64,000 bases of DNA from Mobula hypostoma (taxonomy: Eukaryota): assembly GCF_963921235.1 (NCBI RefSeq), contig NC_086097.1, positions 61,196,001 through 61,260,000 of the forward strand. Direction: 5' to 3'. Positions within the stretch are counted from its first letter, which is position 1. Each line of letters begins with the position of its first letter. Of this stretch, positions 1,290-61,931 are shown in pieces. The translations under genes were made by a program, and so were the position numbers. Under the pieces are notes generated by a model. The model had not been told where the DNA came from. It made no database searches and saw only the letters and a list, made by a program, of their open reading frames with translations.

Positions 1290-1293
1290 TAAG

Positions 1294-4422: not shown

Positions 4423-4434
4423 AAAGGGGGGAAG
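4423..4434 (+). promoter_or_regulatory. Polypurine tract
   Basis: AAAGGGGGGAAG immediately before the 3' LTR. Confidence 0.85.
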
Positions 4435-27261: not shown

Positions 27262-28010
27262 ATGAAGATTATTCCAATATTATTTGTAGTAATATTTTTG
27301 TCAATTTTCCCTACTCAGTTGAGGTGACTCATAATGTATATTTCTATTATGGATAATCAGAAATATTACAAATCAATAAAGCTCCTGCCAAGTAGTAAGA
27401 AATGGTCTGTTCATGGAACAATACATGTTCTATGTGTGGAAATTGAGCATATGCTTCTCTTCCATGTAACTGGTTAGGATCTTGTTGCTTCAGATATGCT
27501 TTACCTGACATGAGACAAACATACACTTTACCTTTACCTCCTGGGTCTTGGAGTAAATGAGACATTTCAGAATGAGATTATTTTGCATCAATTTTATTCC
27601 TATTTTGTGGTGCTGCAAGGAATATAAGTGAGATTAAAAATGTTGCTGCAGCATTAGAAAGGGAAAGCCTCCACACTGCCGAAACCTTGGGAAAAGTAAC
27701 ATCAGAAATGGTCACCATGTGTAAGATGGTTTGTCAAAATCAGATGGCATTAGATCTTCTCTTAGCAGTTAAGGGGGGAACATATGCATTTATATGCAAG
27801 GAGTGTTATACTTACATAGCTGATGAGTCTGATGATACAACTAATTTGGCTGATCATATTCATAAAGAAGCAGCTATAATACAATCACCTGATGATTGTG
27901 ATTTCTTTGATTGGATTCATTGGATCTTGGAACATCGTTTTACTCAATATGACGAGTCATTTTATTCATACTAATATGCCTGATCACAGTTTACATATTT
28001 TTACTTGTTT
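27262..28010 (+). pseudogene. env: Retroviral env remnant (signal peptide, SU C-terminus, TM)
   Basis: MKIIPILFVVIFLSIFP; CGN*AYASLPCNWLGSC; QNQMALDLLLAVKGGTYAFICKECYTYI (immunosuppressive domain plus decayed CX6CC). Confidence 0.8.
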
Positions 28011-38134: not shown

Positions 38135-38851
38135 TTTACAGCAATAATGGTAACTGGATAATGTCTACAGTGTGTCTCAGCAAGTGCTTTTTTTCCGTTA
38201 GTGTTAAAAGGATATCTGAGGAAATATCACAAGTGTGTGAAGTTATCCAATTAGGAGAAAAAGTATATAAATATTGAGAGTCATTCAGGTTTATCAGGAA
38301 TATGGTAAAGAACATCAAGAAGCCATGAAAGAAACAAGTTGTAAGTCTGTTTCTCCAGCTTCGGTTTTTGCAATAGACAACTTGCTTGTCTGTAACTTGA
38401 TAGAATGTCATTTTAGTTTATAGGAATTGTACTTGTATCTTGGAAATCCTTAATCCTTTAAGCTTAATGTTTATGGTTTAGAATTGGCTTGAAATTTGGA
38501 AATGTTTTATAATGTTCCAAGATTCAAGATAATAATTCAATGGATCAAGATAAGGTAGGAATCCCCCGTGAATTTTAAACGAGTTTTAAGAATATTGTTT
38601 GGATTTAAATGTATATCAATAAAAATAGTGAACTGTGTTTCAAACTACTTTGATAACTCAAAATATTTTCTCCTTGGTAGGGAGAGGGGACCCACCACTC
38701 AGATAGTGCGCATTGGCAGCTAAACTCACCATGGAGAATAGACCCATCGGCAGTTCCACTTCTTGCTGCTGTGGCACACTTAATTTGTCATCCTTGTGAA
38801 AATGTACACATTAGTGCAAAATGCAGGGTGACTCAGCTATCCCTGCTGACC

Positions 38852-39075
38852 AACAGGAATTCTGCAGATGCTGGAAATTCAAGCAACACACATCAAAGTT
38901 GCTGGTGAATGCAGCAGGCCAGGCAGCATCTGTAGGAAGAGGTGCAGTCGACGTTTCGGTCCTGACGAAGGGTCTAACGCCTAGTCCTGAGGAAGGGTCT
39001 CGGCCTGAAACGTCGACTGCACCTCTTCCTACAGATGCTGCCTGGCCTGCTGCGTTCACCAGCAACTTTGATGTG
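38852..39075. mobile_element. Palindromic PLE-terminus mini-insertion with hammerhead motif
   Basis: 14-bp TSD TATCCCTGCTGACC (38838-38851, 39076-39089). 70-bp inverted arms 38888-38957 / 39007-39076, near-identical to 17157-17226. Confidence 0.88.
38982..39019 (+). ncRNA. Minimal hammerhead ribozyme motif (GUC triplet)
   Basis: TAGTC-CTGAGGA-AGGGTCTCGGCCT-GAAA-CGTC^GACTG. Confidence 0.78.
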
Positions 39076-41701
39076 TATCCCTGCTGACCTTCTTGTTTCT
39101 CAGTCCTCCTAAATATACCAATACACACAGAGAAAAGACAGGAAGAATAATCTGACCTCATGTTCAAATTCTGCCAGTATCATTTTCCTTGCATTATTAA
39201 TCACCTTCATGCTCTGCAGAGATCTCCCTGTATTCCATCTTTTCGTTATTGTTGACACCTTCCATTAGCCGTTGCAATATACAGGCTTCTTTGCTTCCAC
39301 GCCAAAGCTTCTTCGTCCGCCCTTCAGCCAGATGTAACTTGCCTGAGGTGTCAATAAATTCTGCTGCACTTGACAAACCTTCCCGGGCCAGAAGCTGCTT
39401 CTTGTGCTGCAAGTCCTGCTGCTTGATATGTGTGCTGTTGGGATTTTCAAAGTCTGCTTGCATTTTCAGTGGCTGTAACAATTTATAGACGGAATTTCCC
39501 CTTTCAAGGTTACTGCTAGCCGTACGGCCTTGAATGCTAAAGCAGCTTTGCATCAGGAAAAGGAGCGAGGATTGAGTGAGGAGATGGAAATTCCATTCCT
39601 ACAAGTCGACTTGGCCCATGATTCACTTTAGATGTCATTATTAAAGGCAGCCACTTACATTATATTATTTTGTTTTGCAATTCCACTTAAGTACCAATCA
39701 TAAAAGAAAGGTGGGCACTCATTGCAAACTGCATAAGTCTTGCAGTTTTGCTTCTGATTTTCTCTATGCATCAATTCACACAGGACACTGAACAGACCAA
39801 ACATGTGACAACCACCAGAATCCTGGGCGTTGCCAGTGTGACCATACACACAGTAGCCACTTTATTAGGTAAACCTGTATACCTGTTCATTAATACAAAT
39901 ATCTAATCAGCCAGTAATGTTGCAGCAACTCAATGCATAAAAGCATGGAGACACTTTCAAGAGATTCAATTGTTGTTCAGATCAAACATCAGAATGGGAA
40001 AGAAATGAGATCTAAGTCATTTGATGGTAGAATAATTATTGGTGTTAGACAGGATGGTTTGAGTATCACAAATGAGTATCACAGGATGGTTTGCTTATTA
40101 CTTGGAATTTTCATACACAATGGTCTCTATAGTTTATAGAGAGTAGTGCGTAAAACAAAAAAACATAAGGATAAGTAGCAGTTCTGTGGTAAATATGCCA
40201 TGTTACTGAGAGAGGACAGAACAGAATTGTGCATTTAATATTTCAATAATATTTTAGTAATGTAAATATTTTATTTCACCAAGCATGCTTGTTCATTTAA
40301 ATAATTCATTATGGATTATAGGCATGCCTCACTTACAGTAAAAATTACATTAAATTAGACTCACATTCCAGGCTCCTTGTTTCCTTTGAGTTAGTTTTAT
40401 ATTTTATGTTTTAGAGTTACAAAACATAACAGTGTTGATGAGAAAGTTTAAACAAACCACAAAGACTCCCCTCCTGTTGAAGTGCAGTGAGATGATTGAG
40501 TTTTATAAAAGCACAGTGAGTAAAAAAAATCTGTGCAGCATGTACTTCTTCAGGAAGAGACAGAGACCATCAAGTTAAAAAAAAGGCAGAGAACAGAAGA
40601 ATTCACAGATTCATAAACAGTGAGTACTGGGTGATAATAATCATAAAAAAAGAGCTGAAAGGACTGGCTACTTGGAAAGATTGACATACTTAATTACGCA
40701 ACAGATAACTGGCTCCTGCAAAGTGTACTAATTGAGCAGTGTTTCGAAGCAAATGAAATAGCCAATAAGAACGAATGTCAATTTTGCTGAGTGCATTGGA
40801 TTTAAAGGCCTACAGTTTGCTTAGAAGTTTGACTGCTTCAATTAAACCAGCAGAAATGAGCTTTGCTAATATTATGAAAGTAATGCATGAATATTCAGAA
40901 ATGAACCCATTTTTGATTGCAGAATGCCTTAGGTTTCATAAGTGAAATCAAAAGGAAATGAGTCCATTTCAGCATACATGGCTGAATGGATGAACTTGTC
41001 TGAGCATTGTCAGTTCAATGATGGGCTTAATAAGACAATGAGAGATTGTTTAGTTTGTGGAATCTTACAAGAAAGCATTCAAAAAACATTCCTAACTGAA
41101 GCACCACTCATATTTATTTTTTTTTAGATTATGAGAACATTCAGTCCTCTTTTATTGCCATTTAGAAATGCATACATGCATTAAGGAATGATACAATGTT
41201 TAAAGGAGAAGTGGAAATAGCTGTATCAATAAAGTCAGCAGAGAAGCAATTGAGTTGCAATCAGGAGTGAAAATGAACGTGTACATAATTACAGCATCTA
41301 AACAGAAACCAACCAGGCTGAATAAATTTTGATTCCATTGTGGCAGGGGTTCAAAGAGACCAGGCCAAACTAAATTTAAAGATGAAACTTGCAGAAAATA
41401 CAACAAAGTAGGACACACACAAAAAGCATTTTAGGCTGATAAAAATAAATGACCTGCACGGGGAAGAGAAAAAGATAAAATGTCAAGTTGCAGTTTCATA
41501 AAGAGCACTAACCAGTATGTCATTAATGAAAAATCTGATAGTGATGAGTGTGACACAGGGCTGAGTAGCCTGAGGATTTCCAATGTGAAAACTAACAACA
41601 AACATAGAAACATAGAAACATAGAAAATAGGTGCAGGAGTAGGCCATTCGGCCCTTCGAGCCTGCACCTCCATTTATTATGATCATGGCTGATCATCCAA
41701 C

Positions 41702-44700
41702 TCAGAACCCCGCCCCAGCCTTCTCTCCATACCCCTTGACCCCTGTAGCCACAAGGGCCATATCTAACTCCCTCTTAAACATAGCCAATGAACTGGCCTC
41801 AACAGTTTGCTGTGGCAGAGAATTCCACAGATTCACCACTCTCTGTGTGAAGAAGTTTTTCCTAATCTCGGTCCTAAAAGGCTTCCCCTCTATCCTCAAA
41901 CTGTGACCCCTCGTTCTGGACTTCCCCAACATCGGGAACAATCTTCCTGCATCTAGCCTGTCCAATCCCTTTAGGATCTTATACGTTTCAATCAGATCCC
42001 CCCTCAATCTTCTAAATTCCAACGAGTACAAGCCCAGTTCATCCAGTCTTTCTTCATATGAAAGTCCTGCCATCCCAGGAATCAATCTGGTGAACCTTCT
42101 TTGTACTCCCTCTATGGCAAAGATGTCTTTCCTCAGATTAGGGGACCAAAACTGCACACAATACTCCAGGTGTGGTCTCACCAAGGCCTTGTACAACTGC
42201 AGTAGTAGCTCCCTGCTCCTGTACTCGAATCCTCTCGCTATAAATGCCAGCATACCATTCGCCTTTTTCACCGCCTGCTGTACCTGCATGCCCACTTTCA
42301 ATGACTGGTGTATAATGACACCCAGGTCTCGTTGCACCTCCCCTTTTCCTAATCGGCCACCATTCAGATAATAATCTGTTTTCCTATTTTTGCCACCAAA
42401 GTGGATAACTTCACATTTATCCACATTAAATTGCATCTGCCATGAGTTTGCCCACTCACCCAACCTATCCAAGTCACCCTGCATCCTCTTAGCATCCTCC
42501 TCACTGCTAACACTGCCGCCCAGCTTCGTGTCATCCACTAACTTGGAGATGTTGCATTTAATTCCCTCATCCAAGTCATTAATATATATTGTAAACAACT
42601 GGGGTCCCAGCACTGAGCCTTGCGGTACCCCACTAGTCACCGCCTGCCATTCTGAAAAGGTCCCGTTTATTCCCACTCTTTGCTTCCTGTCTGCTAACCA
42701 ATTCTCCACCCACACCAATACCTTACCCCCAATACCGTGTGCTTTAAGTTTGCACACTAATCTCCTGTGTGGGACCTTGTCAAAAGCCTTTTGAAAATCC
42801 AAATATACCACATCCACTGGTTCTCCCCTATCCACTCTACCAGTTACATCCTCAAAAAATTCTATGAGATTTGTCAGACATGATTTTCCTTTCACAAATC
42901 CATGCTGACTTTGTCCGATCATATCTCCGCTTTCCAAATGTGCTGTTATCACATCCTTGATAACTGACTCCAGCAGTTTCCCCACCACCGACGTTAGGCT
43001 AACCGGTCTATAATTCCCCGGTTTCTCTCTCCCTCCTTTTTTAAAAATTGGGGTTACATTAGCCACCCTCCAATCCTCAGGAACTAGTCCAGAATCTAAC
43101 GAGTTTTGAAAAATTATCACTAATGCATCCACTATTTCTTGGGCTACTTCCTTAAGCACTCTAGGATGCAGACCATCTGGCCCTGGGGATTTATCTGCCT
43201 TCAAACCCTTCAATTTACCTAACACCACTTCCCTACAAACATGTATTTCACTCAGTTCCTCCATCTCACTAGACCCTCTGTCCCTTACTATTTCTGGAAG
43301 ATTATTTATGTCCTCCTTAGTGAAGACAGAACCAAAGTAATTATTCAATTGGTCTGCCATGTCCTTGCTTCCCATAATCAATTCACCTGTTTCTGTCTGC
43401 AGGGGACCTACATTTGTCTTTACCAGTCTTTTCCTTTTTACATATCTATAAAAGCTTTTACAGTCCGTTTTTATGTTCTCTGCCAGTTTTCTCTCATAAT
43501 CTTTTTTCCCCTTCCTAATTAAGCCCTTTGTCCTCCTCTGCTGAACTCTGAATTTCTCCCAGTCCTCAGGTGAGCCACTTTCTCTGGCTAATTTGTATGC
43601 TACTTCTTTGGAATTGATACTATCCCTAATTTCTCTTGTCAGCCACGGGTGCACTACCTTCCTTGATTTATTCTTTTGCCAAACTGGGATGAACAATTGT
43701 TGTAGTTCATCCATGCAAGCTTTAAGTGCTTGCCATTGCATATCCACCGTCAATCCTTTAAGTGTCATTTGCCAGTCTATCTTAGCTAATTCACGTCTCA
43801 TACCTTCAAAGTTACCCCTCTTTAAGTTCAGAACCTTTGTTTCTGAATTAATTATGTCACTCTCCATATTAATGAAGAATTCCACCATATTATGGTCACT
43901 CTTACCCAAGAGGCCTCTCACGACAAGATCGCTAATTAACCCTTCCTCATTGCTCAAAACCCAGTCCAGAATAGCCTGCTCTCTAGTTGGTTCCTCGACA
44001 TGTTGGTTCAAAAAACCATCCCGCATACATTCCAAGAAATCCTCTTCCTCAGCACCTTTACCAATTTGGTTCACCCAGTCTACATGTAGATTGAAGTCAC
44101 CCATTATAACTGCTGTTCCTTTATTGCACACATTTCTAATTTCCTGTTTAATACCATCTCCGACCTCACTACTACTGTTAGGTGGCCTGTACACAACTCC
44201 CACCAGTGTCTTCTGCCCCTTAGTGTTACGCAGCTCTACCCATATCGATTCCACATCTTCCCGGCTTATGTCCTTCCTTTCTATTGCGTTAATCTCTTCT
44301 TTAACCAGCAACGCCACCCCACCTCCCCTTCCTTCATGTCTATCCCTCCTGAATATTGAATATCCCTGAACGTTGAGTTCCCATCCCTGGTCACCCTGGA
44401 GCCATGTCTCTGTGATCCCAACTATATCATAATCATTAATAACAATCTGCACTTTCAATTCATCCACCTTATTACGAATGCTCCTTGCATTGACACATAA
44501 AGCCTTCAGGCGCTCTTTTACAACTCTCTTAGCCCTTGTACAATTATGTTGAAAAGTGGCCCTTTTTAATGCTTGCCCTGGATTTGTCGGCCTGCCACTT
44601 TTACTTTTCTCCTTTGTACTTTTTGCTTCTACGCTCACTTTACACCCCTCTGTCTCTCTGCACTGGTTCCCATCCCTCTGTTGTGAACTAACCTCCTCAC

Positions 44701-44734
44701 GCCTAGCCTCTTTAATTTGATTCCCACCCCCCAA
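41702..44734 (-). CDS. CR1 ORF2: AP endonuclease + reverse transcriptase, 1010 aa
   Basis: NARSIRNK, ITETWL, GDFN, SDH, QHGF, YLDFQKAFD, SGVPQGSVLGP, SKLVDDTK; no stops. Confidence 0.95.
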   Translation of the reverse strand: MGGGNQIKEARREEVSSQQRDGNQCRETEGCKVSVEAKSTKEKSKSGRPTNPGQALKRATFQHNCTRAKRVVKERLKALCVNARSIRNKVDELKVQIVINDYDIVGITETWLQGDQGWELNVQGYSIFRRDRHEGRGGGVALLVKEEINAIERKDISREDVESIWVELRNTKGQKTLVGVVYRPPNSSSEVGDGIKQEIRNVCNKGTAVIMGDFNLHVDWVNQIGKGAEEEDFLECMRDGFLNQHVEEPTREQAILDWVLSNEEGLISDLVVRGLLGKSDHNMVEFFINMESDIINSETKVLNLKRGNFEGMRRELAKIDWQMTLKGLTVDMQWQALKACMDELQQLFIPVWQKNKSRKVVHPWLTREIRDSINSKEVAYKLARESGSPEDWEKFRVQQRRTKGLIRKGKKDYERKLAENIKTDCKSFYRYVKRKRLVKTNVGPLQTETGELIMGSKDMADQLNNYFGSVFTKEDINNLPEIVRDRGSSEMEELSEIHVCREVVLGKLKGLKADKSPGPDGLHPRVLKEVAQEIVDALVIIFQNSLDSGLVPEDWRVANVTPIFKKGGREKPGNYRPVSLTSVVGKLLESVIKDVITAHLESGDMIGQSQHGFVKGKSCLTNLIEFFEDVTGRVDRGEPVDVVYLDFQKAFDKVPHRRLVCKLKAHGIGGKVLVWVENWLADRKQRVGINGTFSEWQAVTSGVPQGSVLGPQLFTIYINDLDEGIKCNISKLVDDTKLGGSVSSEEDAKRMQGDLDRLGEWANSWQMQFNVDKCEVIHFGGKNRKTDYYLNGGRLGKGEVQRDLGVIIHQSLKVGMQVQQAVKKANGMLAFIARGFEYRSRELLLQLYKALVRPHLEYCVQFWSPNLRKDIFAIEGVQRRFTRLIPGMAGLSYEERLDELGLYSLEFRRLRGDLIETYKILKGLDRLDAGRLFPMLGKSRTRGHSLRIEGKPFRTEIRKNFFTQRVVNLWNSLPQQTVEASSLAMFKRELDMALVATGVKGYGEKAGAGF

Positions 44735-44739
44735 CCATT

Positions 44740-45060
44740 CTAGATTAAAGTCACCTCAGTAGCCCCCGCCAATCTCCCCGCCAGGATATTGGTCCCCCTA
44801 GGATTCAAGTGTAACCCGTCCTTTTTGTACAGGTCACGCCTGCGCCTGAGGTCCCAATGATCCAAAAACTTGAATCCCTGCCCCCTGCTCCAATCCCTCA
44901 GCCACGCATTTATCCTCCACCTCATCGCATTCCTACTCTCACTGTCGCGTGGCACAGGCAGTAATCCCGAGATTACTACCTTTGCGGTCCTTTTTCTCAA
45001 CTCCCTTCCTAGCTCCCTATATTCTCCTTTCAGGACCTCATCCCTTTTCCTACCTATGTC
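44740..45060 (-). CDS. CR1 ORF1 C-terminal fragment (SGNH esterase-like)
   Basis: KVVISGLLPVP...FLDHWD...DGLHLNPRGTNIL. Confidence 0.8.
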   Translation of the reverse strand, partial: DIGRKRDEVLKGEYRELGRELRKRTAKVVISGLLPVPRDSESRNAMRWRINAWLRDWSRGQGFKFLDHWDLRRRRDLYKKDGLHLNPRGTNILAGRLAGATEVTLI

Positions 45061-45417
45061 AAGAAATATGGCTTATATCAGAAGTGGACATCATATTAAT
45101 TAAAATGGAATTGGATACTGTCTCAGCTGTTTATGTAATTTCATAAAACGTCTTTGAACAACAGTTTGAAGATGCCGAACTGAAGCCTTCAGATATCTAA
45201 CTAAGAGCTTATACTAAATAAAAAGGTAACTCCTGTGGGAATGATATTCGTAACAGTTAAATACAATGACCAACAAGCTACATTGGGCTTGTTTGTGGTA
45301 AAAACAAGAGGGCCAGCATTGGTGGGATGGGATTAGCTAAGACAGTTATACTGTAACTTGATTGGAAATCCATCCACAATTGAAAGCAAATTTAAGAAAG
45401 TACTGGATGATGCCACA

Positions 45418-46138
45418 CCAATCTCCATGCTGTACACCATGAACCATTGCCCAACAGCTGGAAAACAGGTGTTGCTTCCAACGTCCATGCCTTGGTGGGA
45501 AAGCATATTGGATGAAGGAAAGACAATGTTGCTCAGGGCTAGGAGGAAACATAAAAGTACCAAAAGCAGAGGTCTTACACAACAGCTTTGTAGGCAACAT
45601 ATCAAAGAATGCTTCTGATACATTAATCAGGCAGTTATTTGCAAAATGTGGCTTGTTTCTAAGATGGAAGACAATTCAAGGAGCTTCAGGAAAGTTGCAA
45701 GCATTTGGGTTTTGTGAGCATACAGAATCAGAATCTAATCTGGTTGCATTAAGATTATTGTATGAATTTCATGGGAGTCAAAAAAACTGCTTGTAAGAGT
45801 ATATGCAAAAACTTGATGCATGGGAAGACAAAAAGAAAGGAGTCAATGGAGATACAAAAACAAAGTTTTCATTATATAATGTTGTGGATCAGGAAACAAA
45901 GAGGTGAGATCAGATCATAAAGGGAGCAACAGAAAGATTAATAAGAGAATACTCTAGTGAACTAAATGCACCTTCCCAAGATCAAGATGCACATTATAGA
46001 AAGAAGAAAAAGGAATTGGAAGAGCATAAACAAGATCTAATTTCTCAAGAAATTAGCAAATTCAGAGATACTCACAAGACCTAAAAGAAAAGGGAAGGCA
46101 AGAAAGAGAAAGACAAGCAATTAAAAAGGAGAAGAAAG
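45418..46138 (+). pseudogene. RBM25: Processed (intronless) RBM25 fragment: RRM and following region
   Basis: FVGNISKNASDTLIRQLFAKCGLFLRWKTIQGASGKLQAFGFCEH..E, DQETKR*DQIIKGATERLIREYSSELNAPSQD, KQDLISQEISKFRDTHK; stops and frameshifts present. Confidence 0.92.
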
Positions 46139-46863
46139 GTATCCAGAGCTATCAGAACCACTTCCTTCAGTCCCAGAGTCCACCACGGAGGAGGGATCAG
46201 ACTCTGAGTTTGTTCCACGTTTCACCTGCCAAACAAATTTGATCCCACTTGTCAGGAAAGACATTATCTCACAAGAGTGAGAAAGCCTTCACAGCAATTA
46301 AATATTTAGGACTGAATGGGACAATTTAAATGCACTATGCTGTGGATGTCTGTATAGTTGTTACATTATATATTATACAGTGTATATAGTTGAGATGCAT
46401 TCTATATTGAGTTGGAGTTTATAGCTAAGCAGGGAGGAGTGTTGTGTATTAGATATTACAGTAATATTTAAGTAATATTGCAAATATATTGTTTGATTAA
46501 GCATTCTTGTTCATTTAAATATTTCATTATGGATCATACGTAAAAGTACATAAATGGCATATGTCACCATGCCATCATACGTGCACACCTCCCTTAAAGT
46601 AAAAATGAAGTTAGACACACTTTTTCAGCTCCTTGTTTCCTTTGAATTAGTTTTATGTTTTGGAGTGACAAAGCACAGCAAGAATGATCACACCAGTTAA
46701 AACTGACAGAAAAGTAACAGTAACACAAATAACCATGCATTGCAACTGTGGTGTACGGAAGTGCATCTCTGAGCACACAACACGTCAAACATTGAAGTGG
46801 AGGGGCAACAGCAGCAGAAGACCATGAATATATACTTAGTGGCTACTCTATTATGTACAGGAG

Positions 46864-49800
46864 TGTCATGATCCTGACTGAACAGTGACAGGCATCGAAG
46901 TTCCAGTACTCCAGTTCCCCGGAGAATGGTTAGCTGCCTTGTCCTATTAAGACTCAAACTGGCAATTACTGCCTGTCACATCTCTTCATGGAAGTCTGTA
47001 CTTGAAAAGCATCTTGCTAAACACACAGTGCTCAATCATAGGAGTTCTACTTCTATTACTACTGTTTGTGATTTTGTTTGTTTTGTCTTGTTTATTTTGG
47101 GTCTGAGTCTGAGTTAATTCTAGACTTCACTCTGCACTTGGGTTCACTCCCATCCATAGCTCTCTCATCACAGCATGATTGAGCCATCATGAGCCCAGCA
47201 GAGTATGACTGTCTGTGAACAGCATCAGCCTACTAGGGAGTTACTGTAGGTAGACATGACAACATGCTTCAGAAACTTACCACTCTCCAAAAATCCCTCT
47301 GACTCCAGTAGGCAGTATCTGAGTTCAGCAAGAGTGGTTGCCAGCTCTGGGCACGTTCAAGGTGGACACTCCATCAATACTTGTGAGGGATCACTGCACC
47401 TACCATCTCCCGAGTGGTATGACGGTAACCCCAAATTATGTTGAGGATTCCTGGTACAATGCTCCTTGGCCTTTGAGTTACAGCCATCCAAGTTCCCATC
47501 AGAATGCAGCAAGGTAGCCTATATCAACTTGTTCCTTATTCAAAGAGTCCTTATCTGGGCCACCGCACTCTGGGAAAAGGATTCACCAGCTTGTGCCAGT
47601 GCAGACCTCTTCAGAGATTTTGAGGAGGGTGTGCTACCATGCTGCTGGAGGACATGGGCCTGTAATAAAGCTCAACTTGGGTCAGGGGAATCGGTCTGTG
47701 GCTGATTATTCCATAGAATTTTGTACCTTGGCTGCAGAGAGTGATAGAAAGCACGAACCGCTTTCTGACATAATGGACTGAGTGACAAGCTAAAGGTACC
47801 CTTGTGGCCTGAGACTCAGTGGAGGATCAGAAAGTATTATGGACCTGACAATTCTACTCGATAACCGATTAATGGAAATGAGAAGGGATAAGGCAAAGGG
47901 AGTTACTTCAAACAGATTCTTCCCCTGGCTATTCTCCATCTTTCCTCTCCTTTTCCCCAGTTAAGACTCCTCCTCAACCGTCGCCAATCTCAGCATCTGA
48001 GGAACCTGTGCAAATAGGTCGAACCAGGCTCCCTCGAACTGAAAGAGAGAGAGGAAGGAGGGAAAGGTGCTGAATTTACAGTGGAGAGACCAAACATTGT
48101 CGGACCTCTTGTCTCAAGCAGCAGGGAGGGCTGTGACAGTTGTTAGCCACACTCGTGGTTCAGCTCCCTCCAGAGTGGTGCTCCCATATCGCCTCATGGG
48201 GAGACCAAAAACACTCCCTTGATGTCTTTATTATCTTCAGTGTAGCCTGGAAAATTTTGGACCTTGAACTGGCCAGAAGATTGACAAGCCCCCTTTTGCA
48301 TCTCAACCAGTGGCTCATTACCATGGTCCTGAATGGGAGATCATTGGTGCTAGGGCGGATCAACTACCAAACATCCCCGCTCAAGCTCAAGATTGGCCAG
48401 CATGTGGAATCATACCAGCTCCATCTAGTTTGCTCCCCATAAATACCCTCACTCTGGGTCATCCCTGGCTGTCATCCCAGAACCCAAGAATCAATTGGAC
48501 TACTTGTGTTGTTCTGGGTTGATCTAACCAGTGCAAAAAGAAATTCCTCCAACACGGGCCTAAGACATCTTCCAAGGTACCTTCCAAGATATCTCCTGAG
48601 TTTACTTCTGAGGCAAAGTCCGAGACTACTTCCAATATTGAGTGAACTTTTGAACCTTCCACCTCTAACCCCAGGTAAAGGTCCTCCCGGATACATCTTT
48701 GTTCCTAAAGCTGTTTGTTTGGAAGTGCCTAACTGGGCACACACTTCAAACCTGGATAAGCATCCAAAGGTGGCTCACATGCTAGAGTTCATCAAGAGAT
48801 GATACTGGTGACCCAGCGTGAGTGTCTCTTAGCATGTGATATCTGCACACAAAAAAAAAGAAGTCCAAGCACAGCCTTGAGATCTGCTTCAGCCTCTCCT
48901 CATTCCTACTCACCTTTGGTCCCACATTTCTATGCAATTTGTCAAAGTCTTCAGGCATATTGGGGTAATACAGCAATCATGGTGGTCGTAGGCCCATTCC
49001 TCAAGGTCTGCTGTTTTGTACCCCTTCTCGAACTACCATTGGCTTCAGAGACCCACAAGCTCATGTTACAGGCCATCTTCAGGATTCACAGTTTCCCCCA
49101 GGACATCATCTTTGATCATGGTCCCCACTTTGCCTCTAGGTTTTGCAAGGCCTCTTGTGGGGTCATTGGGGCTTCTACCAATATGTTGTCGAGGTTCTGC
49201 AGACTAATGGGAAAATGCAGACAGTCAACCAGGACCCATAGAGAACACTCAAGTGTCTAGCCTCAGGGAATCCAAAACCAAGACACTAAAACGTAGAGTA
49301 ACAACCTGATCTGGGCAGAGCTTGCGGACAAATCATTTCAGCATTGCTCTATCAGGATGCCCACTTTTGATTGCTAATTTTGATACCACCTCTACTGTTT
49401 CTAGAACAAGAAACGGAGGTGGGGAGTTTCCATTAGTGGACTAATTGGTCCAGATGTGTCACTTGAAATGGATCAAGATGAGAGAGACATTGTTGGCCAA
49501 TTTGTGGCAACAGCAAGACCAGGCCAACTGCCGGAGTAAACAGGTGCTAACACTACTTCCCAGTGAAAAGGTCTGGCTCTCAGCTAGAGATCTTCCCATG
49601 TGTACTGAATCCAGAAATCAGACCCCTCATTACATCAGTCCATTCAAAATTCTGTGACGCATCAACTCAGTTACTTATCATCTCCATTTCCAGGGAACCA
49701 TGTGGATTCACTCCACAGTCCAAGTATTTCCCCCCGCCCCAGCCCTTGAGTGCCAGCCCCTTGGCTCCATTTCCCAAACCTCCTTGGCCTCCACGAATTA

Positions 49801-50320
49801 TTGAGGGGCAACCCACCTACAAAGTCTGGTGGCTTTTGAACGTCTGCATTGTCAGAGGTGAAAGGCAATGCCTTATAGATTGGAGGGATATGGCACAGAA
49901 GAAAGATGCTGATTTCCTGCATGGGACATTCTAGATCCTCTGTTAATAGAGCACTTTTGCCCTTGGCCATCAGGAGCTGACCATATGAGAGGGTTTCTAT
50001 CATGTTCCTGAATGAACAGCAGCAGTCATCAAAGTTTCAGTGCTCCAATTCCCCAGGGAGTGATTAGCTCCCTCTGTTCCTTTAAATCTCAGACTACCAA
50101 TTATTGCCTTTCACACTTCTTCATGGAAAGTCTGTACTTAAAGGCCCCATGTTCAGCACTCAGTGCTCAATTGTAAGAGTTCCATTTCTAGTAGTACTGT
50201 TTGTACTTTTGCCTTTGGATTTTGTTTGCATCATCTTCTATATTTTGAGTCTGACTCTGAGTTAATTCTAGACCTTACTCCGCACTTTGTTTCACCGCCA
50301 TCCATAACTCTCTCGTTACG
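46864..50320 (+). mobile_element. Gypsy LTR element B (Sushi/chromovirus-like; RT-RNaseH deleted; decayed)
   Basis: LTRs 46864-47172 and 49998-50320; flanking duplication CAGGAG. Gag PEWYDGNPKLC..QGNRSVADYSIEF; integrase FRIHSFPQDIIFDHGPHFASRF; ISPFKI; chromodomain-like YKVWWLL..CLIDW. Confidence 0.85.
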
Positions 50321-51792: not shown

Positions 51793-52404
51793 GCCCGGGG
51801 TGTATGGGGTGTCAGGGAGGGGTAGCACCTCTGGTGGGGGAACATGTCACGTCCTTTTCAGGGTGGTTAGTCCACCTTTGGTCCCCACCTGGCACTCAGC
51901 TCTCACCTGTGGCTCCCCGTAGCTGTTTGCATGCGACAGTGGCCACACCCCGGGCAACAGCTTCGACAAGCCGGCTAAACCAGGTGAGGGTAGCCGACGG
52001 GTCTCAAACCCTCGGTGAGATAGGGAGTTGTCTATCCCAGCATGTGAAGACAGACTCCGGCGGATTGAGCGGACGAGACCAATGGAAGGTCCAACGATCA
52101 AGAAGGCGGTCTCTGCAAGCGTCGTGTAACGTGTAGAGCAGGACAAGACACAGGACGTCTTCTGTGTCTTGTGCTGCTCTACACGTTCCACGATGCTTGC
52201 AGAGACAGCCTTCTTGACTCTGACCAGCCATCTTGACTCTGTCTTGCCACTGGATCCAGATGGGAATTGGGAAGAGAGAGTGAGGCTGACGCTGTGCAAC
52301 TCTCCCTCACTTAAATCCAAATCACGCGCTAGTCTCGACACCATCAATAATGGTGTCGAGGTCCTCATCGACATACGATGGACGAACAACAACAAAACAA
52401 CAAC
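51793..52404 (+). mobile_element. Non-autonomous RTE-like retroposon (SINE-like), ~610 bp
   Basis: GC/CpG-rich insert interrupting the CR1 PGNY|RPV codons; (AAC)n tail; TSD ATAATT (51787-51792, 52405-52410); no recognisable coding domain. The RTE assignment is inference. Confidence 0.7.
51806..51988 (+). ncRNA. Candidate HDV-like self-cleaving ribozyme
   Basis: P1 GGGGTGT/ACACCCC, P2 CTCACCTG/CAGGTGAG, P3 GGC/GCC, L3 starting TCC, P1.1 GG, P4 GCTT/AAGC, J4/2 GGCTAA, all in canonical order. Confidence 0.65.
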
Positions 52405-53769: not shown

Positions 53770-56157
53770 CAATAATGATTGCTTCTTTCCAGTTTCTGAT
53801 TTCTACCCACAATGACTCAGTAGATGATCCCTCTACAACTTCCTCCCTTTCTATAGCTGATTCCTGATTAGCAATGCCAACCCTCCACCTCTTTTATATC
53901 CTTGCCCCTTTTGAAACATCTAAACTCCCAAAAATTCGGCAGCCATTTCTGCCCCCGTGATAGCCAAATCTCTGTTATGGCCACAGTTGCGTTGTCCCAT
54001 GTACAGATACATGCTCTAAGTCCACCCTCTTCGTTTGTCATACATCCTGCATTAAAGTAAATATAATTCAACCTATCCAACTGACTGCAGTTATGCCCTG
54101 TCCTCTACCTATACTTCTCCACACCCTCTACATGTTACATTTACACCAACTTAACATTCCCTGACCTATCACTGTGCTTCAAATCCTCCTGACTACCTAT
54201 TTAAACCCTCCTCAACTGCTTAGCAAATTTGCCCCAAGAGTATTTCTAACCTCAAGTTCATCTGCAAACTTTTTGCACAGGTCATACCTTCCCCAATGAT
54301 CCACAAGTCTGAAACCTTGCATCCTGCACCAACTTTCAGCTACACATTCATCTGCCATATCATCTTGTTCTTACACTCACTGGCATGGTGCACACTCCTT
54401 TATCAATATGACAGTTCACCAGCAACAACAGATGCAGTGACTCCTGACCTTACTTTCCTAAACAAGGGCCTTCTTATAACTCCTTATAATTCTCAAGAGA
54501 AAACCTTTATCCATAAATCCTTACATCATTCTTAGAACAACCACCCAACCAACTCTCAACATTCAGTGTACTGCTATTATTTTAGCCTACCCTCCAAACC
54601 AGCTTCCAGCTGATGCCAACCCTCCAGCACATTGCTAGTTTGAGATCCTACTTCTCTCTGTTCAACAGTAGTTCCACACTTGACAACTTGTGGTCCAATC
54701 TCTGCCCCTGCCCTAATTCTGGCCCTATCTCCACCACCCTCCAGCACACTGACACAAGGCCACATTTGCTTTCTGTGTATGATAGACATTTGTTACAGTA
54801 AGTCCTATTCAGTAACACTGGATACTTCAGGCCTAGGCAATGACAAGTTTTGATGAAGTCACCTTTTCAACAAGATTTCTGTTGGCCAACTGTATTCTCA
54901 TATACACCATTAGTAACCACTCCCATCTGTTTCCTTATTTTCCCGTTCTCCTATTTTCCCTCATTTTAACAAGCCTCTAACCATTTCTCTTCAATCAATG
55001 GTCTATGTCTTCTCTGTTGTTTATTTAATATTTCAGTAATATTTGATTAATATTGTAAATATATTATTTGATTATGCATTCTTTGTTGTTTACATAATTC
55101 ATTACAGATTATATGTAAAAGCACATGAATGGCACACGTTATTTTGCCACCACATCAAAGTTCGTTTCTCACTAAAAGTAAAATGGAATGCAGACATTTT
55201 CCCAGGGCTTTTGTCCTTTTCTTTCAGATTAATTTCTGCATTTACGAAACATAACAGTGATGATCAGTAGGTTTTAAAAGGAACCTGAGTTGACTATCTA
55301 ACTGATGAAGCGCAATGCATTTTTCGTCACAAAAGGAAAGGGCTGGTCAAGTTAAAATAAAATGCAGCATGAGTCTCTCCAGAAAAGGAGAAGAAAGATG
55401 GTTGAATTAAAAAAGGGCAGAAAATGGTTGGAAATCACAGTGACTACCTGTGATAATAACCATAAATAAAAAAAAGAGCAGAAATGGTTGGCTACATCAG
55501 AAAGATAGACATGTTCATTACAAAACTGATAACTGTTGATTTATAAAATGAATTGAGCATTATTTTGAACCAAATGAAATAGCCAATGAGAATAGCTAAT
55601 AACTATGTGCAATAGGTGGAAGAGCATACAGTTTGCTTAGAAATTTGATTGCTCTAACAAAACCAGCCAAAATGAGCTTTGCTGATATCATAAAAGTAAT
55701 ACAGGGTCATTTAGAACTGAAACCATAGTTGTTTGCAGAACACTTTATGCTTCATAAGCAGAATTAAGAGGAAGGGAAGTCCACTTCAGCTTACATGGCT
55801 GAATTGAAGAGATTTTCTGAGCATTATTGTTTCAGTGACGTGCTTAATGATGCACTGAGAGATCATATAGTTTGTGATATTTAACAACAAATCATGCAAA
55901 AATGGCTCCTAAGTGAAGCACAACCGGCATTTAAAAGAGCAGTTGAAATTATAGCATCAATGAAAACTGCAGCCACAGATGCATTTCAATTGCAGTCCGG
56001 AATGAAAGTGAGTGTGAACAAAATTGCAACGTCTAAACAGAAACCTGCCTGGCTGAACATATTGTGTTACCATTGTTACAGGGGCTCACATTCACCAGAC
56101 CAGTGTAGTTTTAAAGGTGAAACTTGCAGAAAATGCTACAAAGTAGGATACATAAAT

Positions 56158-57130
56158 GTCAAGTCAAATCGAGTTTCTTTGCATTTAACTACATACATGA
56201 ACACTGTCAAATGAGACAACTTTTCTCTAAACCTGGTGTAAAGCACAGTAGTACACATAGCGCACATAAAACACACAATAACTTAGGAAAGAGAGAATAA
56301 CATCTACAGATGAATTACACATAAATAAACAAAGTAAAGTACATAAATTAAATATTGTCAGTTACAGAACAGTTTAACTGGTGACATTTTGAATGCAATG
56401 CAGCAGGGAGTTCAGAAGTCTAATGGCCTGAGAAAAGAAGCTGTTTCCCATCCTGGCCATTCTAGTCTTTGTGCATCAGAGTCTCCTGCCTGATGATAGA
56501 AGATCAAAGAGGATACTGGATGAATGGATGAGATCCTTGGTAATACTAAGGAGCTGTGTATGCAGTACTCCTGATAAATCTCACCAATTTATGGTATGGA
56601 GACCACCATGATCCTCTCAGCAATTCTCACAGTCCTTTGTAGAGACTTTCAGTCTGATGCTCAGCTGCTCCATATCAGATGGAGATCAGCTTGTCAGGAT
56701 GCTCTCAATGGTGCTCCTGTAAAATTCAGTTAAGAGGGAGGGTGGGGCCTCACGCCTCAATCTTCTGAGGAAGTGGAGGTGCTGCTGTGCCTTCTTGTTC
56801 AGGGAGGCGATATTCAGAGACAGGTGAGGTCATCTGTGATGTGAATTCCCAGGAGCTTGGTGCACTTAATTCTCCCTTCGGAGGAACCATGTATTCACAT
56901 AGGGGGATGGTTCGTCTGCATCTTCCTGAAGTCCACAATGATTTTCTTTGTCTTCTCCACATCAGACTTAGGTTGATCCTATCACACCAGTCCACCTGCT
57001 GCTCCATTTCCCCTCTGTACTCCGACTCATCATTGTTGTTGATGAGGCCAACCTCATCAACAAACTTGATGACACAGTTTGAGCTAAATCCTGCGACATA
57101 GTCATGCGTCAGCAGTGCGAACATCAGTGA
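56158..57130 (-). mobile_element. Rex1/Babar-like LINE 3' fragment in Gypsy C
   Basis: THDYVAGFSSNCVIKFVDEVGLINNNDESEY; tail at 56158. Confidence 0.75.
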
Positions 57131-58393
57131 AAAGCAGGCTGGGCAAACAAAAATAAATGAACTACACAGGGAAGAGAAAAGCTAGAAAGTCACGTTGCAC
57201 TTTCAAAAAGAGCACTGATTTTCATGTTGCTGCTGCAAATCTAATAATGATGAAACTGACGCAAGAATGGGTAGCCTTGAGATTTATAACGTGTAAACTA
57301 ACAATAGACAAGCAATTTGGCTTACACCAGAAGTGAACGTCAAATTAATAAAAATAGAATTGGACATCGAATTGACTGTTTCAGTCAATCCACAAAATGA
57401 GTTAGAATGTCATTTCAAAGGTACTGAACTGAAGCCTGCATTTATCAACTAACAACTTACACTGGAGAAAATAACTCTTGTGGGAATGACATTCGTAACT
57501 GTGAAAAACGAAAACTAACAAGCCACAATGGACTTGTATGTGGTAAAACAGGACCGCCAGCATTGCGAAGGTGTGATCGGCTGAGAGAACTATGACTTGA
57601 TTAAAGATCAGTCCACTATTTGATGTCACATCCCCTACAATCGAGACAACTGGAAGCGAACTTAGAAAGGTACTGGATGACGCCACAGCGGTGTTCAAGG
57701 ATGCTATTGGAAAACTCAAACATATCGAGGGTAAAGTAGAGTTAAATGAAAATGTCGAGCCTACGTTTTACAAAGTTTACCTGGTCCCACATTCCATCTA
57801 TAATAAAGTAACCAGCGAGCCACATCGTATGGAGGCTGAAGAAATTCTTACCAAGGTTGAATGGAGCCCATAAGCAATACCAGTCATCCCAGTATTCAAA
57901 AAGAATGGGTCTGTCCTGATCTGTGATGATTTAAAGGCCACAATCAACTCAGTTCTGAAAAAAATACCCTCATCTCTGTATAGAGGATGTTTTTGCAAAC
58001 CTTTTTTGAGGAAAACACTTCAGTAATGTTGACTTAGCTAAGGCAAATCTACAGATGGAGAGGGGCTTATTCACTATAATAGACTTATTTTTTGAGAAGC
58101 ATTTGCACCTGCACTCTGGCAGAAAGCTATGGGCCAGGTGCAACAAGGTTGCCCAAACACTCAGTGTTATCTGGATGACATCATTGTTACTGGTGAGGAT
58201 GTCAAGGAATATCTCCAAAAACTCAAAAGAGTGTTTAAAAGATTAGAAGATCCATAATTCATTGAAAGTGCCATCACATGTAGATAGGGTCGTAAAGAAA
58301 GCTATTGGCACATGGACCTTTATAAATCAAAGTATTAAGTACAGGAAATGGGATTTTATGTTGAAGTTGTATGAGACATTGGTGAGGCCTAAT

Positions 58394-59550
58394 TTGAATT
58401 GAATTGACTTTATTTCTAACATCCTTCACATACATAAGGAGTAAAAATCTTTACATTATGTCTCCATCCAAATGTACGATATGCAATTTATAGTAATTTA
58501 TAATAAGTAGTAGTAAACAACAAGACAGTCAATATAACATTGAAATACAATTGTATTAGCATGAATTAATTAATCTGATGGCCTGGAGGAAGAAGCTGTC
58601 CCAGAGCCTGTTGGTCCTGGCTTTTATACTGTGGTAGTGTTTCCCGGATGGTAGAAGCTGGAGCAGTTTGTGGTAGGGGTGACTTGGTTCCCCAATGCTC
58701 CTTCAGGCCATTTTTATGCACCTATCTCTGTAAATGTCCTGAATATTGGGAAGTCCAAATCTACAGATGTGCTGAGCTGTCTGCACCACTCTCTGCAGAG
58801 TCCTGCGATTGAGGAAAGCACAATCCCCATAACAGGCAGTGATGCAGCCAGTCAGGAGGTTTTCAATTGTGCCCCTGTATCCCAAGCCCTTAGGATTTGG
58901 GGACTCATGCCAAATTTCTTCAACCATCTGAGGTGAAAGAGGTGCTGTTGTGCTCTTGTGCTATGTACAGACCATATGAGATACTTGGTGATATGTATGC
59001 CGAGGTACTTAAAGCTGTTCATCCTCTCAACCCCAGATACATTGATGTCAATAGGGGTTAGCCTGTCCTGACGAAGGGTCTCGGCCTGAAACGTTGACTG
59101 CTCCTCTTCCTATAGATGCTGCCTGGCCTGCTGCGTTCACCAGCAACTTTGATGTATGTTGCTTGAATTTCCAGCATCTGCAGAATTCCTGTTGTTAGGG
59201 GTTAGCCTGTCTCCATTCCTTCTGTTGTCCACAACCAGCTCCTTTGTTTTTGTGATATTGAGGGAGAGATTGTTGACATCACCATGATGACTTCTTCTTT
59301 GGCGGCTGACTCTTTATTATTTGAGATAAGGCCAATCAATGTAGTATCATCAGCAAATTTAATCAGCAGATTCAAGCAGTGGGTGGTGACACAGTCATGG
59401 GTATACAGAGAGTAAAGGAGGGGGCATAGGATGTAGCCCTGAGGGGCACCTGTGTTGAGGGTCCAGGGGGCAGAGGTGAGGGATCCCACACTTACCATCT
59501 GCCGGCGATCTGATAGGAAGTCCAGGATCCAGCTACAAAGGCAGGGTGAA
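58394..59550 (-). mobile_element. Rex1/Babar-like LINE fragment
   Basis: WILDFLSDR..NTGAPQG..LLYSLYTHDC..KFADDTTLIG; (TTCAA)n tail. Confidence 0.8.
59068..59195 (+). mobile_element. 128-bp solo PLE terminus starting at the hammerhead core
   Basis: TSD TAGGGGTTAGCCTGTC (59052-59067, 59196-59211); CTGACGA...GAAACGTTGAC; matches 17137-17231 and the reverse complement of 38852-38957. Confidence 0.88.
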
Positions 59551-61519
59551 CTTAGAGTATTGTGTGCCATTTTGGTCAACTGCCTACAGGAAAGATGTAA
59601 ATAAGAGTGAAAGGATACAGAGAAAATTAAATATAAAGTTGCTGAGTTGGAGGACCTGAGTTATAAGGAAAGATGAACTAGGTCAGGACTATTCCTTAGA
59701 ACATAGAAGATTGAGAGGAGATTTGATAGATGTATAAAAATTTACGAGGGGCTAGATAAGGTAAATGCAAGTAGGCTTTTTCCACTGATGTTGTGTGGGG
59801 CTACAAACAGAGGTCATAGGTTAAGGCTGAAAGGTGAAGTGTTTGCAGTAGATGTAATGTATATGGATTTCAGCAAGGTATTTGATAAGGTACCCCATGC
59901 CAGGCTTATTGAGAAAGTGAGGAGGCATGGGATCCAAGGGAACACTGTTTTGTGGATTGCCCACAGAAGGATGGGTTGGTAAATTTGCTGATGACACAAA
60001 GGTTGGGGGTGTTGTGGATAGTGTGGAAGGCAGTCAGAGGCTACAGAGGGACATTGATAGGATGCAAAACTAGGCAGAGAAGTGACAGATGGAGTTCAAC
60101 ACAAATAAGTGTCAGGTGGTTTATTTTGGTAGGTCAAATATGATGGCAAAATATAGTATTTATGGTAAGACTCTTGGCAGTGTGGAGGATCAGAGGGATC
60201 TTGGGGTCCGTGTCCATAAGATGCTTAAAGCTGCTCCACAGGTTGACTCTATGGTTAAGAAGGCATACAGTGCATTGGCCTTCATCAATCATGGGATTGA
60301 GTTTCGGAGCCAGGAGATAATGTTGCAGCTATATAGGATGCTGGTCAGACACCACTTGGAGTACTGTGCTCAATTCTGGTCGCCTCACTACGGGAAGGAT
60401 GTGGAAACCATAGAAATTGTGCAGAGGAAATTTACAAGGATGTTGCCTGGATTGGGGAGCATGCCTTATGAAAATAGGTAGAGTAAACTTGGCCTTTTCT
60501 CCTTGGAGCGACAGGATGAGAGGTGACCTGATAGAGGTGTAGAAGATGATGAGAGGCATTGATCATGTGGATAGTCAGAGGTTTCTTCCCAGGGCTGAAA
60601 TGGTTGCCACAAGAGGACACAGTTTTAAGGAGCTTGGACGTTTTTTATGCAGAGAGTGGTGAGTGCATGGAATGGGCTGCCGGCAACAGTGCCAGAGGCA
60701 GATACAATAGGGTCTTTTAAGAGACTCCTGGACAGATACATGCAGCTCAGAAAAATAGAGGGCTATGGGTAACCCTAGGTAATTTTTATAGTAAGGACAT
60801 AGTCGGCACTGCTTTTTGGCCTGTATTGGGCTGAGAATGTGGAACAAGCTGCCAGCACAAGTGCTGCATTCGAGCTCATTTGGTTAAACACATAGATGGT
60901 AGGGGTATGGAGGGCTCTTTTTCCAGTGGAGGTCGACTAGGGCAGGCATTTTAAATAGTTTTCATGAAGGTCCTGTTTCCATGCTGTACATTTCTATGAC
61001 TCTATGACTCTGTTATGGGCTTAGAGTATGGCATGATGTGTGTGAATTCTTTAAGCCAAGCATCATTTATTGTGGTCAAACCTTGATGCACAAGTATTAT
61101 ACAAGTGTGCTGAGAAAACTCAAACAGTGGTGTATGCTCCAAGGTCAAAGATGTGTCACAGTTGTGTTTTTTTTTAGGATTTATCAACTACTGGTTCACT
61201 CTTTGAACTTATTACTACAGATCAGGAAGGAATGTCAATGAACAAAGCAGAGTGATGTGACTTTCAAAAGCTAAAGGAAATGCTGCTGTCAAACACTATA
61301 CTCACACATTATGATCCACATTGCCCAGTGACATCTGCCAGTGATGGCCTACCTTATTGTACAGGTACAGTCACGTCACATGTTGTGATGGAAGTGAACA
61401 TCCTGAAAGCCTTTGCATCATGTTCCCTTACTGCTGCAGAGAAATATTATGCACAGATTTACAGAGTGGCATGGAGTCTGATTTGGGATGTAAAACTTTT
61501 CAACCTTTACTTGTATGGC

Positions 61520-61931
61520 AGAGAGAAGAGGTGGTTCTGGTGGTCTCCCTTGCATGGCTTGTCTACACAATGCCACCATCATCCTCACCAAGATGTTGTC
61601 TTTAACCCTTGCCTTACCACAACTCCTACAGTTCTTTCTTCTTCTTCTTCGGCCCTTTGAACTTTACACCTATTACCTCCCAGCTTCTCACATCATTCCC
61701 TTTCATCTCCCCTCAGCCACCCACCTCCCTTCGGCATTCACTTATCACCCACGTCCTCATGCTTTTCCGTCTCCAGCACCTCTTACTCTAGCATCCGCCT
61801 TTTTCCAATTCTAATGGAACGTCTCACCCAAACTGCTGATTGTTCCTCCCGCTCCATAAGTGCTGTCTGGCCTGTGAATTTCCCCAGTATTTTGTGGGTG
61901 TTACTTAATGTTTCCAGCATCTGCAGAATTT
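61520..61931 (+). mobile_element. Old PLE 3' end with decayed hammerhead region
   Basis: Pyrimidine-rich UTR, then GCTGTCTGGCCTG...TTTCCAGCATCTGCAGAATT, similar to 59110-59190. Confidence 0.55.

What the first reader, a model, noticed from the sequence alone, without database searches (positions are those of the whole stretch)
45418..46138. Gypsy element that captured a spliced RBM25 mRNA fragment in place of pol
Seen: element A follows sister element C up to ..CTGGATGAYGCCACA (45417 versus ~57687). It then switches to ~720 bp of intronless RBM25 coding sequence with no poly(A) or TSD, and returns to an integrase-tail-like segment, PPT and 3' LTR. The element's own TSD is intact. Known: LTR-mediated retroposition by double template switching onto co-packaged mRNA. 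Inference: this family may act as a gene-capturing vector, with different copies carrying different host mRNA pieces at the same position.
Basis: partly seen in the sequence, partly recalled or inferred. Interest (0 to 1): 0.78.

Follow-up and report, generated by a model that had tools for sequence, protein, structure and literature searches.

The report
Gypsy retrotransposon carrying spliced RBM25 fragment
This is one dead copy of a jumping gene in a shark- or ray-like genome whose copying enzymes were replaced by an intron-free piece of the host splicing-factor gene RBM25, after which the hybrid multiplied many times; this way of copying genes is already known, but heavy multiplication of the captured piece is unusual in a vertebrate.

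Summary
Element A (LTRs 40228-40431 and 46440-46680, 83% alike, AGAAT on both sides) follows its RT-bearing sister C to 45417, then carries about 720 bp of RBM25 and ends in a tail, PPT and LTR. RT, RNase H and the integrase core are absent; no poly(A) or TSD flanks the insert. The insert crosses five inferred exon joints without introns and includes a segment seen only in three shark-type RBM25 proteins. The 5' switch lies on an Ala-Thr pair shared by element and host, in frame with pol. DNA runs of two organisms hold over 100 distinct contigs on RBM25 positions, so one capture was then amplified (roughly hundreds to thousands of copies; crude). This is LTR-mediated retroposition with secondary spread (Tan et al. 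2016): a new member of a known kind. 'Different cargo at the same position' was not shown: C carries RT, and the amplified cargo is the same piece. The scan reported RBM25-carrying copies before on other DNA of this genome, and SUDS3, 4E-T, SH3KBP1 and myosin cargoes (unchecked). Host intron positions were inferred from protein isoforms; the host gene's DNA was not seen.

The parts
40223..40227 (+). Left target-site duplication AGAAT
   Evidence: same 5-mer at 46681-46685; the 5-mer's frequency in the window is 0.0019
40228..40431 (+). 5' LTR (TG...CA), 3 nt short at its start and with an internal deletion of about 43 nt
   Evidence: 160 of 192 aligned columns identical to the 3' LTR
40432..40443 (+). 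Degenerate primer-binding-site-like stretch right after the LTR
   Evidence: similar stretch follows C's LTR at 55257; the PBS label is inferred from position
40660..41420 (+). Decayed gag with zinc-knuckle-like end, interrupted by about 90 nt near 41108-41198
   Evidence: 78% to C's gag; the gag label rests on position and recalled motifs
41602..45059 (-). Later LINE insertion (CR1-like, label recalled) with an open 1017-residue endonuclease-RT frame and an 8-bp repeat tail
   Evidence: (RVT_1 1e-31, Exo_endo_phos 1e-11); C has no such insert
45060..45417 (+). Decayed protease and protease-RT linker, ending at ...LDDAT
   Evidence: matches a fish Gypsy pol protein (P0249) at E 1e-8 and a retropepsin (P0248, Pfam RVP)
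45412..45417 (+). 5' switch region GCCACA = Ala-Thr in both the element's pol frame and the host RBM25 frame
   Evidence: host side known as protein only
45418..46138 (+). Captured spliced RBM25 coding fragment (shark-type segment, RRM, start of the charged coil); frameshifts near 45490, 45540-45586, 45770-45811 and 46079-46086, stops at 45794, 45905, 46082 in the main frame, about 33 nt missing near 46012-46015
46129..46138 (+). 3' switch region GAGAAGAAAG, purine-rich; can be read as RBM25 coil or as the element's tail
   Evidence: microhomology not tested at nucleotide level
46139..46309 (+). Element tail, probably the integrase C-terminus, broken by a deletion near 46180-46240
   Evidence: high depth, loose ends at 46180 in about 100 contigs per DNA run; integrase label recalled, atlas blank
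46425..46439 (+). Polypurine tract
46440..46680 (+). 3' LTR (TGT...CA)
46681..46685 (+). Right target-site duplication AGAAT
55015..61525 (+). Sister element C: LTR, gag, protease, RT and RNase H remnants with several insertions; no captured gene at the same point; 3' end not found

Best explanation
Element A is one decayed copy of a non-autonomous Gypsy LTR retrotransposon subfamily that arose by LTR-mediated retroposition. Inferred: in a germ-line particle of an ancestral intact element, reverse transcriptase left the element RNA near the end of integrase, copied about 750 nt of a co-packaged spliced RBM25 mRNA, and returned to the element RNA in the protease-RT linker, helped by short similarities. 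Shown: the product keeps both LTRs, PBS-like site, gag, protease, tail and PPT but lacks RT, RNase H and the integrase core; the 5' joint is in frame with pol. Inferred: the hybrid was then packaged and copied by intact relatives, giving many dispersed copies with the same cargo, some with further internal deletions. Shown: this copy has its own TSD, has since decayed, and took a LINE insertion. The cargo is most likely a passenger.
For: Replacement, not interruption: C continues into RT and RNase H at the point where A switches. Spliced origin: the insert runs without extra sequence across five places where RBM25 protein models show alternative splicing or intron read-through, and matches the shorter of two shark isoforms at one of them. 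Host clade: the segment MLYTMN... occurs in 3 of 239 RBM25 rows, two from a shark and one unnamed. No poly(A) or TSD at the insert; LTR pair and TSD at the element. At 46046 the high-depth RNA contig differs from about 99% of DNA depth in both organisms. Protein divergence (76%) is within what neutral decay since this insertion predicts (80%, range 75-85%).
Against: No listed contig bridges either junction by 31 letters on both sides, and none spans the stretch (table 8, 32 rows shown, 41,502 not shown). Microhomology is shown only as shared residues at the 5' joint and not at all at the 3' joint. Depth is not a copy number by the tool's own statement. LTRs are only 83% alike, so the TSD (5 bp) carries much of the case for a single insertion.
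Confidence: 0.86

Rival explanations
1. A LINE-made processed pseudogene of RBM25 inserted into an ancestral element, and deletions later removed pol, the poly(A) and the TSD; the product was then amplified as a non-autonomous LTR element.
For: The window is rich in LINEs, one of which has inserted into this same element; this copy shows several deletions.
Against: The fragment is cut at both ends inside the coding region, lies in sense and in frame at a shared Ala-Thr, and no poly(A) or TSD remains; two precise deletions would be needed.
Confidence: 0.06
2. Repeated independent captures: the family is a gene-capturing vector, and many copies picked up RBM25 or other mRNAs separately at one hot spot in the protease-RT linker.
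For: Some DNA contigs join 45993 to 46124-46126 with other letters between, so structural variants exist. Earlier notes list SUDS3, 4E-T and SH3KBP1 cargoes said to replace RT-RNase H-integrase (unchecked). Tan et al. report a recurrent switch site in BLASTOPIA.
Against: The variants seen share the 3' end point and look like internal deletions; site 46046 is nearly uniform among DNA contigs and differs from the host-level RNA contig, although the host could have changed instead. Junctions of other cargo subfamilies were not seen; searches for chimeric proteins found none.
Confidence: 0.05
3. DNA-level repair or gene conversion copied an existing RBM25 retrocopy into a broken element.
For: Microhomology at joints is also produced by break repair (established knowledge).
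Against: Needs a pre-existing retrocopy as donor; none is known here. Replacement bounded so that all cis signals remain fits reverse transcription or selection for mobility equally well, so this cannot be excluded by anatomy alone.
Confidence: 0.03

Closest known systems
LTR-mediated retrocopies of animals (Tan et al. 2016, Genome Res 26:1663, PMC5131818; abstract and sections 5, 6, 8, 9 read; supplements not opened)
   Same: Partial spliced mRNA replacing internal ORFs, no poly(A) or TSD at the insert, short similarity at the switch, both LTRs kept, secondary retroposition as a non-autonomous element, switch near an exon joint.
   Different: Their cases are young and have one to a few insertion sites; species were fly, mosquito, zebrafish, chicken, mouse, human. 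Here the copy is old, in a cartilaginous-fish-like genome, and the cargo occurs in more than 100 contigs per DNA run.
Maize Bs1 (as described in Tan et al., section 9)
   Same: LTR element with captured exonic pieces; all copies share switch points.
   Different: One to five copies, three parent genes, plant; reported to make a hybrid protein. This copy is broken.
Crocodilian ERV4 captures of KIT-ligand (CrocERV29) and nectin3 (CrocERV31) (PMC4299795; 12 passages read)
   Same: Vertebrate germ-line LTR elements that captured a host mRNA and spread with it.
   Different: Retroviral, not Gypsy; cargo is a whole ORF beside or in place of env, under purifying selection; nine and six copies. Here the cargo replaces pol and is a fragment.
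Gag-onc fusions of replication-defective transducing retroviruses (recalled; no call)
   Same: Host coding sequence fused in frame to the element's own polyprotein at the cost of replication genes; helper-dependent spread.
   Different: No envelope or infection here, and no sign that the cargo has an effect.
Vertebrate retrocopy survey (bioRxiv 10.64898/2026.06.26.734816; 12 passages and section 6 read; supplements closed)
   Same: Finds many species-specific retrocopies in cartilaginous fishes, with unusual top parents such as SUDS3.
   Different: Links retrocopy abundance to non-LTR elements and lineage-specific filtering; RBM25 does not occur in its main text. Amplification of single captures inside LTR elements is not considered in the parts I read.

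Membership tests
LTR-mediated retrocopy (Tan et al. 2016) | Host mRNA piece replaces part of the internal ORF instead of interrupting a continuous element | tested here: met
   C continues into RT and RNase H at the same point; A has no RT, RNase H or integrase-core match
LTR-mediated retrocopy (Tan et al. 2016) | Introns lost across at least one exon joint | tested here: met
   Five joints inferred from isoforms and read-through in protein models are crossed without extra sequence; host gene DNA not seen
LTR-mediated retrocopy (Tan et al. 2016) | No poly(A) tail or TSD at the insert | tested here: met
LTR-mediated retrocopy (Tan et al. 2016) | Both LTRs present, element integrated as a unit | tested here: met
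   LTR pair 160 of 192 identical, AGAAT on both sides
LTR-mediated retrocopy (Tan et al. 2016) | Nucleotide microsimilarity at both switch points | tested here: inconclusive
   5': Ala-Thr shared in frame by element and host protein, host nucleotides not seen. 3': neither host nor intact element sequence seen at the joint (one search listed none)
LTR-mediated retrocopy (Tan et al. 2016) | Secondary retroposition as a non-autonomous element | tested here: met
   More than 100 distinct contigs on RBM25 positions in each of two DNA runs, varied LTR flanks; junction-bridging copies not listed
LTR-mediated retrocopy (Tan et al. 2016) | Co-transcription with the LTR | tested here: inconclusive
   Runs guessed to be RNA hold contigs joining RBM25 to the tail (45991 to 46152, depth 68 and 67), but RNA status is a guess
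Gypsy (Ty3) LTR retrotransposon | Order gag-protease-RT-RNase H-integrase | tested here: inconclusive
   Sister C shows protease, RT, RNase H in order and matches P0249, whose Pfam order is RT, RNase H, integrase zinc domain; A itself lacks these domains, and no RT tree was built
Gypsy (Ty3) LTR retrotransposon | TG...CA LTRs, 4-5 bp TSD, PBS and PPT | tested here: met
   PBS degenerate, tRNA match not tested
LINE-mediated processed pseudogene | 3' poly(A) and flanking TSD, intact 3' end of the mRNA | tested here: not met
   Fragment ends inside the coding region; longest A run 5; no flanking duplication
Functional retrogene | Open frame under purifying selection | tested here: not met
   Stops and frameshifts in this copy; divergence fits neutral decay. 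Selection on the ancestral lineage not tested

The most novel reading that the evidence does not exclude
A Gypsy lineage of rays repeatedly replaced RT-RNase H-integrase with host coding pieces fused in frame to gag-protease, and the in-frame cargo helped the defective elements spread (for RBM25, an RNA-binding domain that could aid packaging, stability or splicing control of the element's RNA). Such selected, helper-dependent transducing retrotransposons would explain why odd genes top the retrocopy lists of cartilaginous fishes. The in-frame 5' joint is shown here; the same claim for other cargoes comes from unchecked notes; in-frame fusion may also be favoured only because it avoids decay of the RNA, or arise by chance (one in three).
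Probability: 0.15. Interest if true: 0.75.

Novelty: new member of a known kind. Interest (0 to 1): 0.4.

Why it matters
It extends LTR-mediated gene capture to a cartilaginous-fish-like genome and shows secondary spread far beyond the one to nine copies in the cases I read. If such families are common, retrocopy counts and RBM25-like pseudogene calls in these fishes reflect a few captures multiplied by a transposon, not many separate retropositions or host selection, which bears on a 2026 survey that reads top parent genes as filtered by selection. Many copies of known age also make it directly testable whether a captured in-frame domain was kept by selection on the element. I found no paper on it: RBM25 + retrocopies gave 0 papers; RBM25 + pseudogene + retrotransposon gave 4 unrelated listings; searches listed nothing on LTR gene capture in sharks or rays. 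The library lacks most subscription papers, and supplements of the two preprints, which list parent genes, were closed.

Tried and rejected
No whole genome is held, so the proposed genome-wide extraction of paired-LTR copies could not be run. PDB search gave only generic RRM proteins, 10 sequences. Search for chimeric protease-cargo proteins: the representative library gave 7 hits, of which 4 were repeat-rich proteins with no relation (dropped) and 3 were retroelement protease or pol pieces without cargo; the word-index search with a three-row alignment gave 0 of 643 candidates, weak evidence. Junction-motif scans gave 6 metagenome and 11 viral loci; none of the 17 matched the window beyond the motif or matched pol or RBM25 by tblastn: chance matches. 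Atlas search of the tail gave no usable hit. No RNA holder was listed on record; the RNA label of X19 and X22 is a guess, so expression is not claimed. Low-depth bins partly reflect this copy's own divergence and indels and were not read as absence. The 7-bp repeat AAGAAAG (45394, 46132) was rejected as a TSD because the left copy and the 17 nt after it match sister C. Scan look-ups by sequence, near place and relatives were empty. The VGP Phase I preprint (12 passages read) has no RBM25 or Gypsy mention in its main text. The species was not determined; 'ray' comes from earlier notes only.

Full report
Anatomy. Element A spans 40228-46680. Its two LTRs agree at 160 of 192 aligned columns (83%), start with TG, end with CA, and are bounded by AGAAT on both sides. 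The 5' LTR is 3 nt short at its start and has an internal deletion. Inside lie a degenerate PBS-like stretch, a decayed gag, a 3.46-kb LINE on the minus strand (41602-45059; open 1017-residue frame with Pfam endonuclease and RT), a decayed protease, the insert, a short tail, a polypurine tract and the 3' LTR. Without the LINE the element is 2,995 bp. Sister element C (LTR at 55015) is 76-78% identical to A over gag and protease.

The switch. A and C align up to GCCACA (45417) and then diverge. A fish Gypsy pol protein, P0249, found by the representative search, aligns to C through RT (57616-58251, 61014-61194) and RNase H (61409-61525), but to A only over 45226-45423. So A lacks RT, RNase H and the integrase core: pol is replaced, not interrupted. 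That the stretch after 46138 is the integrase C-terminus rests on a recalled motif and on position; the atlas gave no hit.

The insert is RBM25. The main frame read with X at stops matched 234 of 1609 longer candidates, best E 1e-49, with RBM25 names throughout the named top rows, and 89 of 158 shorter candidates, the best being a shark RBM25-like protein at 69%. That cluster has three members. They carry a segment, MLYTMN...GKQ, found in 3 of 239 RBM25 rows, and the insert begins with this segment. The source is therefore a shark-type isoform, consistent with a cartilaginous-fish host; the species was not determined. In P0212 the segment is preceded by Ala-Thr-Thr-Val-Ser; the window reads ...LDDATPISMLYTMN... 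without a stop or shift from the pol frame into RBM25. The 3' joint is purine-rich and could not be resolved; in this copy the last RBM25 frame and the tail frame differ, but indels lie close by.

Intron loss. No host gene DNA was available, so I inferred exon borders from protein models. After GKQ, two shark isoforms differ by four residues, and the insert matches the shorter (joint near 45468). Two rows start at KCG (joint near 45646; weakest). After SGKLQ, 6 of 206 rows have five extra residues (near 45700). Of 7 rows ending within 45 residues of DEWKA, 4 run into Val right after the ...NG or ...KG motif (near 45850). After FRDTHK, 41 of 173 rows continue with Val and 111 with Lys (near 46078). 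The insert crosses all five places without extra sequence. A sixth border, after KKE, falls in a deletion of about 33 nt in this copy; the high-depth RNA contigs have extra letters there (table 5c). The fragment therefore does not come from one exon. There is no poly(A) (longest A run near the 3' end 5) and no flanking duplication apart from a 7-bp purine repeat that belongs to the element's own sequence.

Amplification. I laid 4 of the 24 listed runs at 80% likeness. The two DNA runs, from organisms A and B, laid 19,473 and 19,575 contigs. Summed depth peaks at about 28,000 on RBM25, 27,000 on the tail, 14,000 on the protease and 152,000 on the LTR, while listed single contigs have depth 5-15. 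At 46046 one contig of depth 12.9, out of 1,451, shares the letter of the high-depth RNA contig; if that contig is the host exon, the ratios are about 110 there and about 2,100 at 45955. The tool states that depth is no copy number, so I take only the order: hundreds to perhaps thousands. LTR loose ends agree at about 50%, as expected for many insertion sites. Of the 30 shown difference rows within the insert (40 shown, 323 not shown, chosen by support), 46046 is the clear case where DNA copies side with the window against the RNA contig; at most others DNA majority and RNA agree against the window, i.e. changes private to this copy. Site 46046 fits one capture, but the host could have changed instead. 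Depth over 46034-46137 is about 5-7% of that at 45955, and several contigs join 45993 to 46124-46126, so many copies may lack part of the cargo that this copy keeps; this copy's own indels also lower depth there. Against my reading: no listed piece bridges a junction or spans the stretch.

Age and constraint. LTR divergence gives 0.094 per site since insertion (95% 0.065-0.133). Neutral decay of that size predicts 80% residue identity (75-85%); observed is 144 of 189 (76%) against P0212, which may be another species (189 of 203 identical to the shark isoform). Most change is thus explained by decay of this copy; the data neither show nor exclude selection on the cargo earlier.

Mechanism. The anatomy matches the double template-switch model of Tan et al. 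2016 (sections 5, 6, 8, 9 read): partial mRNA, replaced ORF, both LTRs, short similarity, later spread as a non-autonomous element. Co-packaging, the switches and trans-mobilisation are inferred; replacement, splicing-type joints, TSD and multi-copy presence are observed.

The vector claim. In the window C carries RT at the same point, and the amplified cargo is one piece. Earlier scan notes describe RBM25 copies at four other places in this genome and subfamilies with SUDS3, 4E-T, SH3KBP1 and myosin. These are unchecked leads; I tested only RBM25 amplification. Whether the cargoes share a junction is open; searches for chimeric proteins and junction-bearing contigs were blank.

Novelty. The mechanism is published for animals, including secondary spread to a few sites, and for crocodilian ERVs with six to nine copies. 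I found no paper on this family. A 2026 survey lists SUDS3 among top retrocopy parents in cartilaginous fishes and ties retrocopies to non-LTR elements; its supplements were closed and may list RBM25. Verdict: a real, well-formed new member of a known kind, of moderate interest for its scale, with a testable but unproven bolder reading about selected in-frame cargo.

Noticed in passing
window 41602-45059 (-): LINE inside element A with an open 1017-residue endonuclease-RT frame and an 8-bp repeat tail; much younger than its host element.
   Followed up: partly
window 424-5300: Young LTR element with about 870-bp LTRs 96-99% alike and a 707-residue ORF with SCAN and zinc-knuckle domains (Gmr1-like by recall); its RT-integrase region looks internally deleted. 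A related solo LTR lies near 11530-12240.
   Followed up: partly
window 46864-50320: A second, unrelated decayed LTR element begins about 180 bp after element A's 3' LTR; repeat pair 47070-47171 and 50218-50319 at 82%.
   Followed up: no
window 27576-27974 (+): 132-residue open stretch resembling a retroviral envelope transmembrane region by recalled motif; Pfam gave no hit.
   Followed up: partly
P0122, P0211, P0212: Shark-type RBM25 has an extra 16-20 residue segment with its own Met before the VLxPT exon, seen in 3 of 239 rows; possibly a lineage-specific cassette exon or alternative start.
   Followed up: partly
window 45991-46152: In both runs guessed to be RNA, one contig of depth about 67 joins RBM25 to the element tail, hinting at an expressed chimeric copy shared by two organisms.
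   Followed up: no
window 38851-39086: Two copies of a short interspersed repeat in inverted orientation, 75-nt arms 96% complementary, 39 nt apart; further copies at 17134 and 59065.
   Followed up: no
window 52098-52217: 56-nt inverted repeat, 93% complementary, 8-nt spacer, inside an insertion within a decayed LINE.
   Followed up: no
window 14768-16528 (+): Long RT-like open stretches of a different retroelement type (Penelope-like by recall); no Pfam hit at E 0.001.
   Followed up: partly
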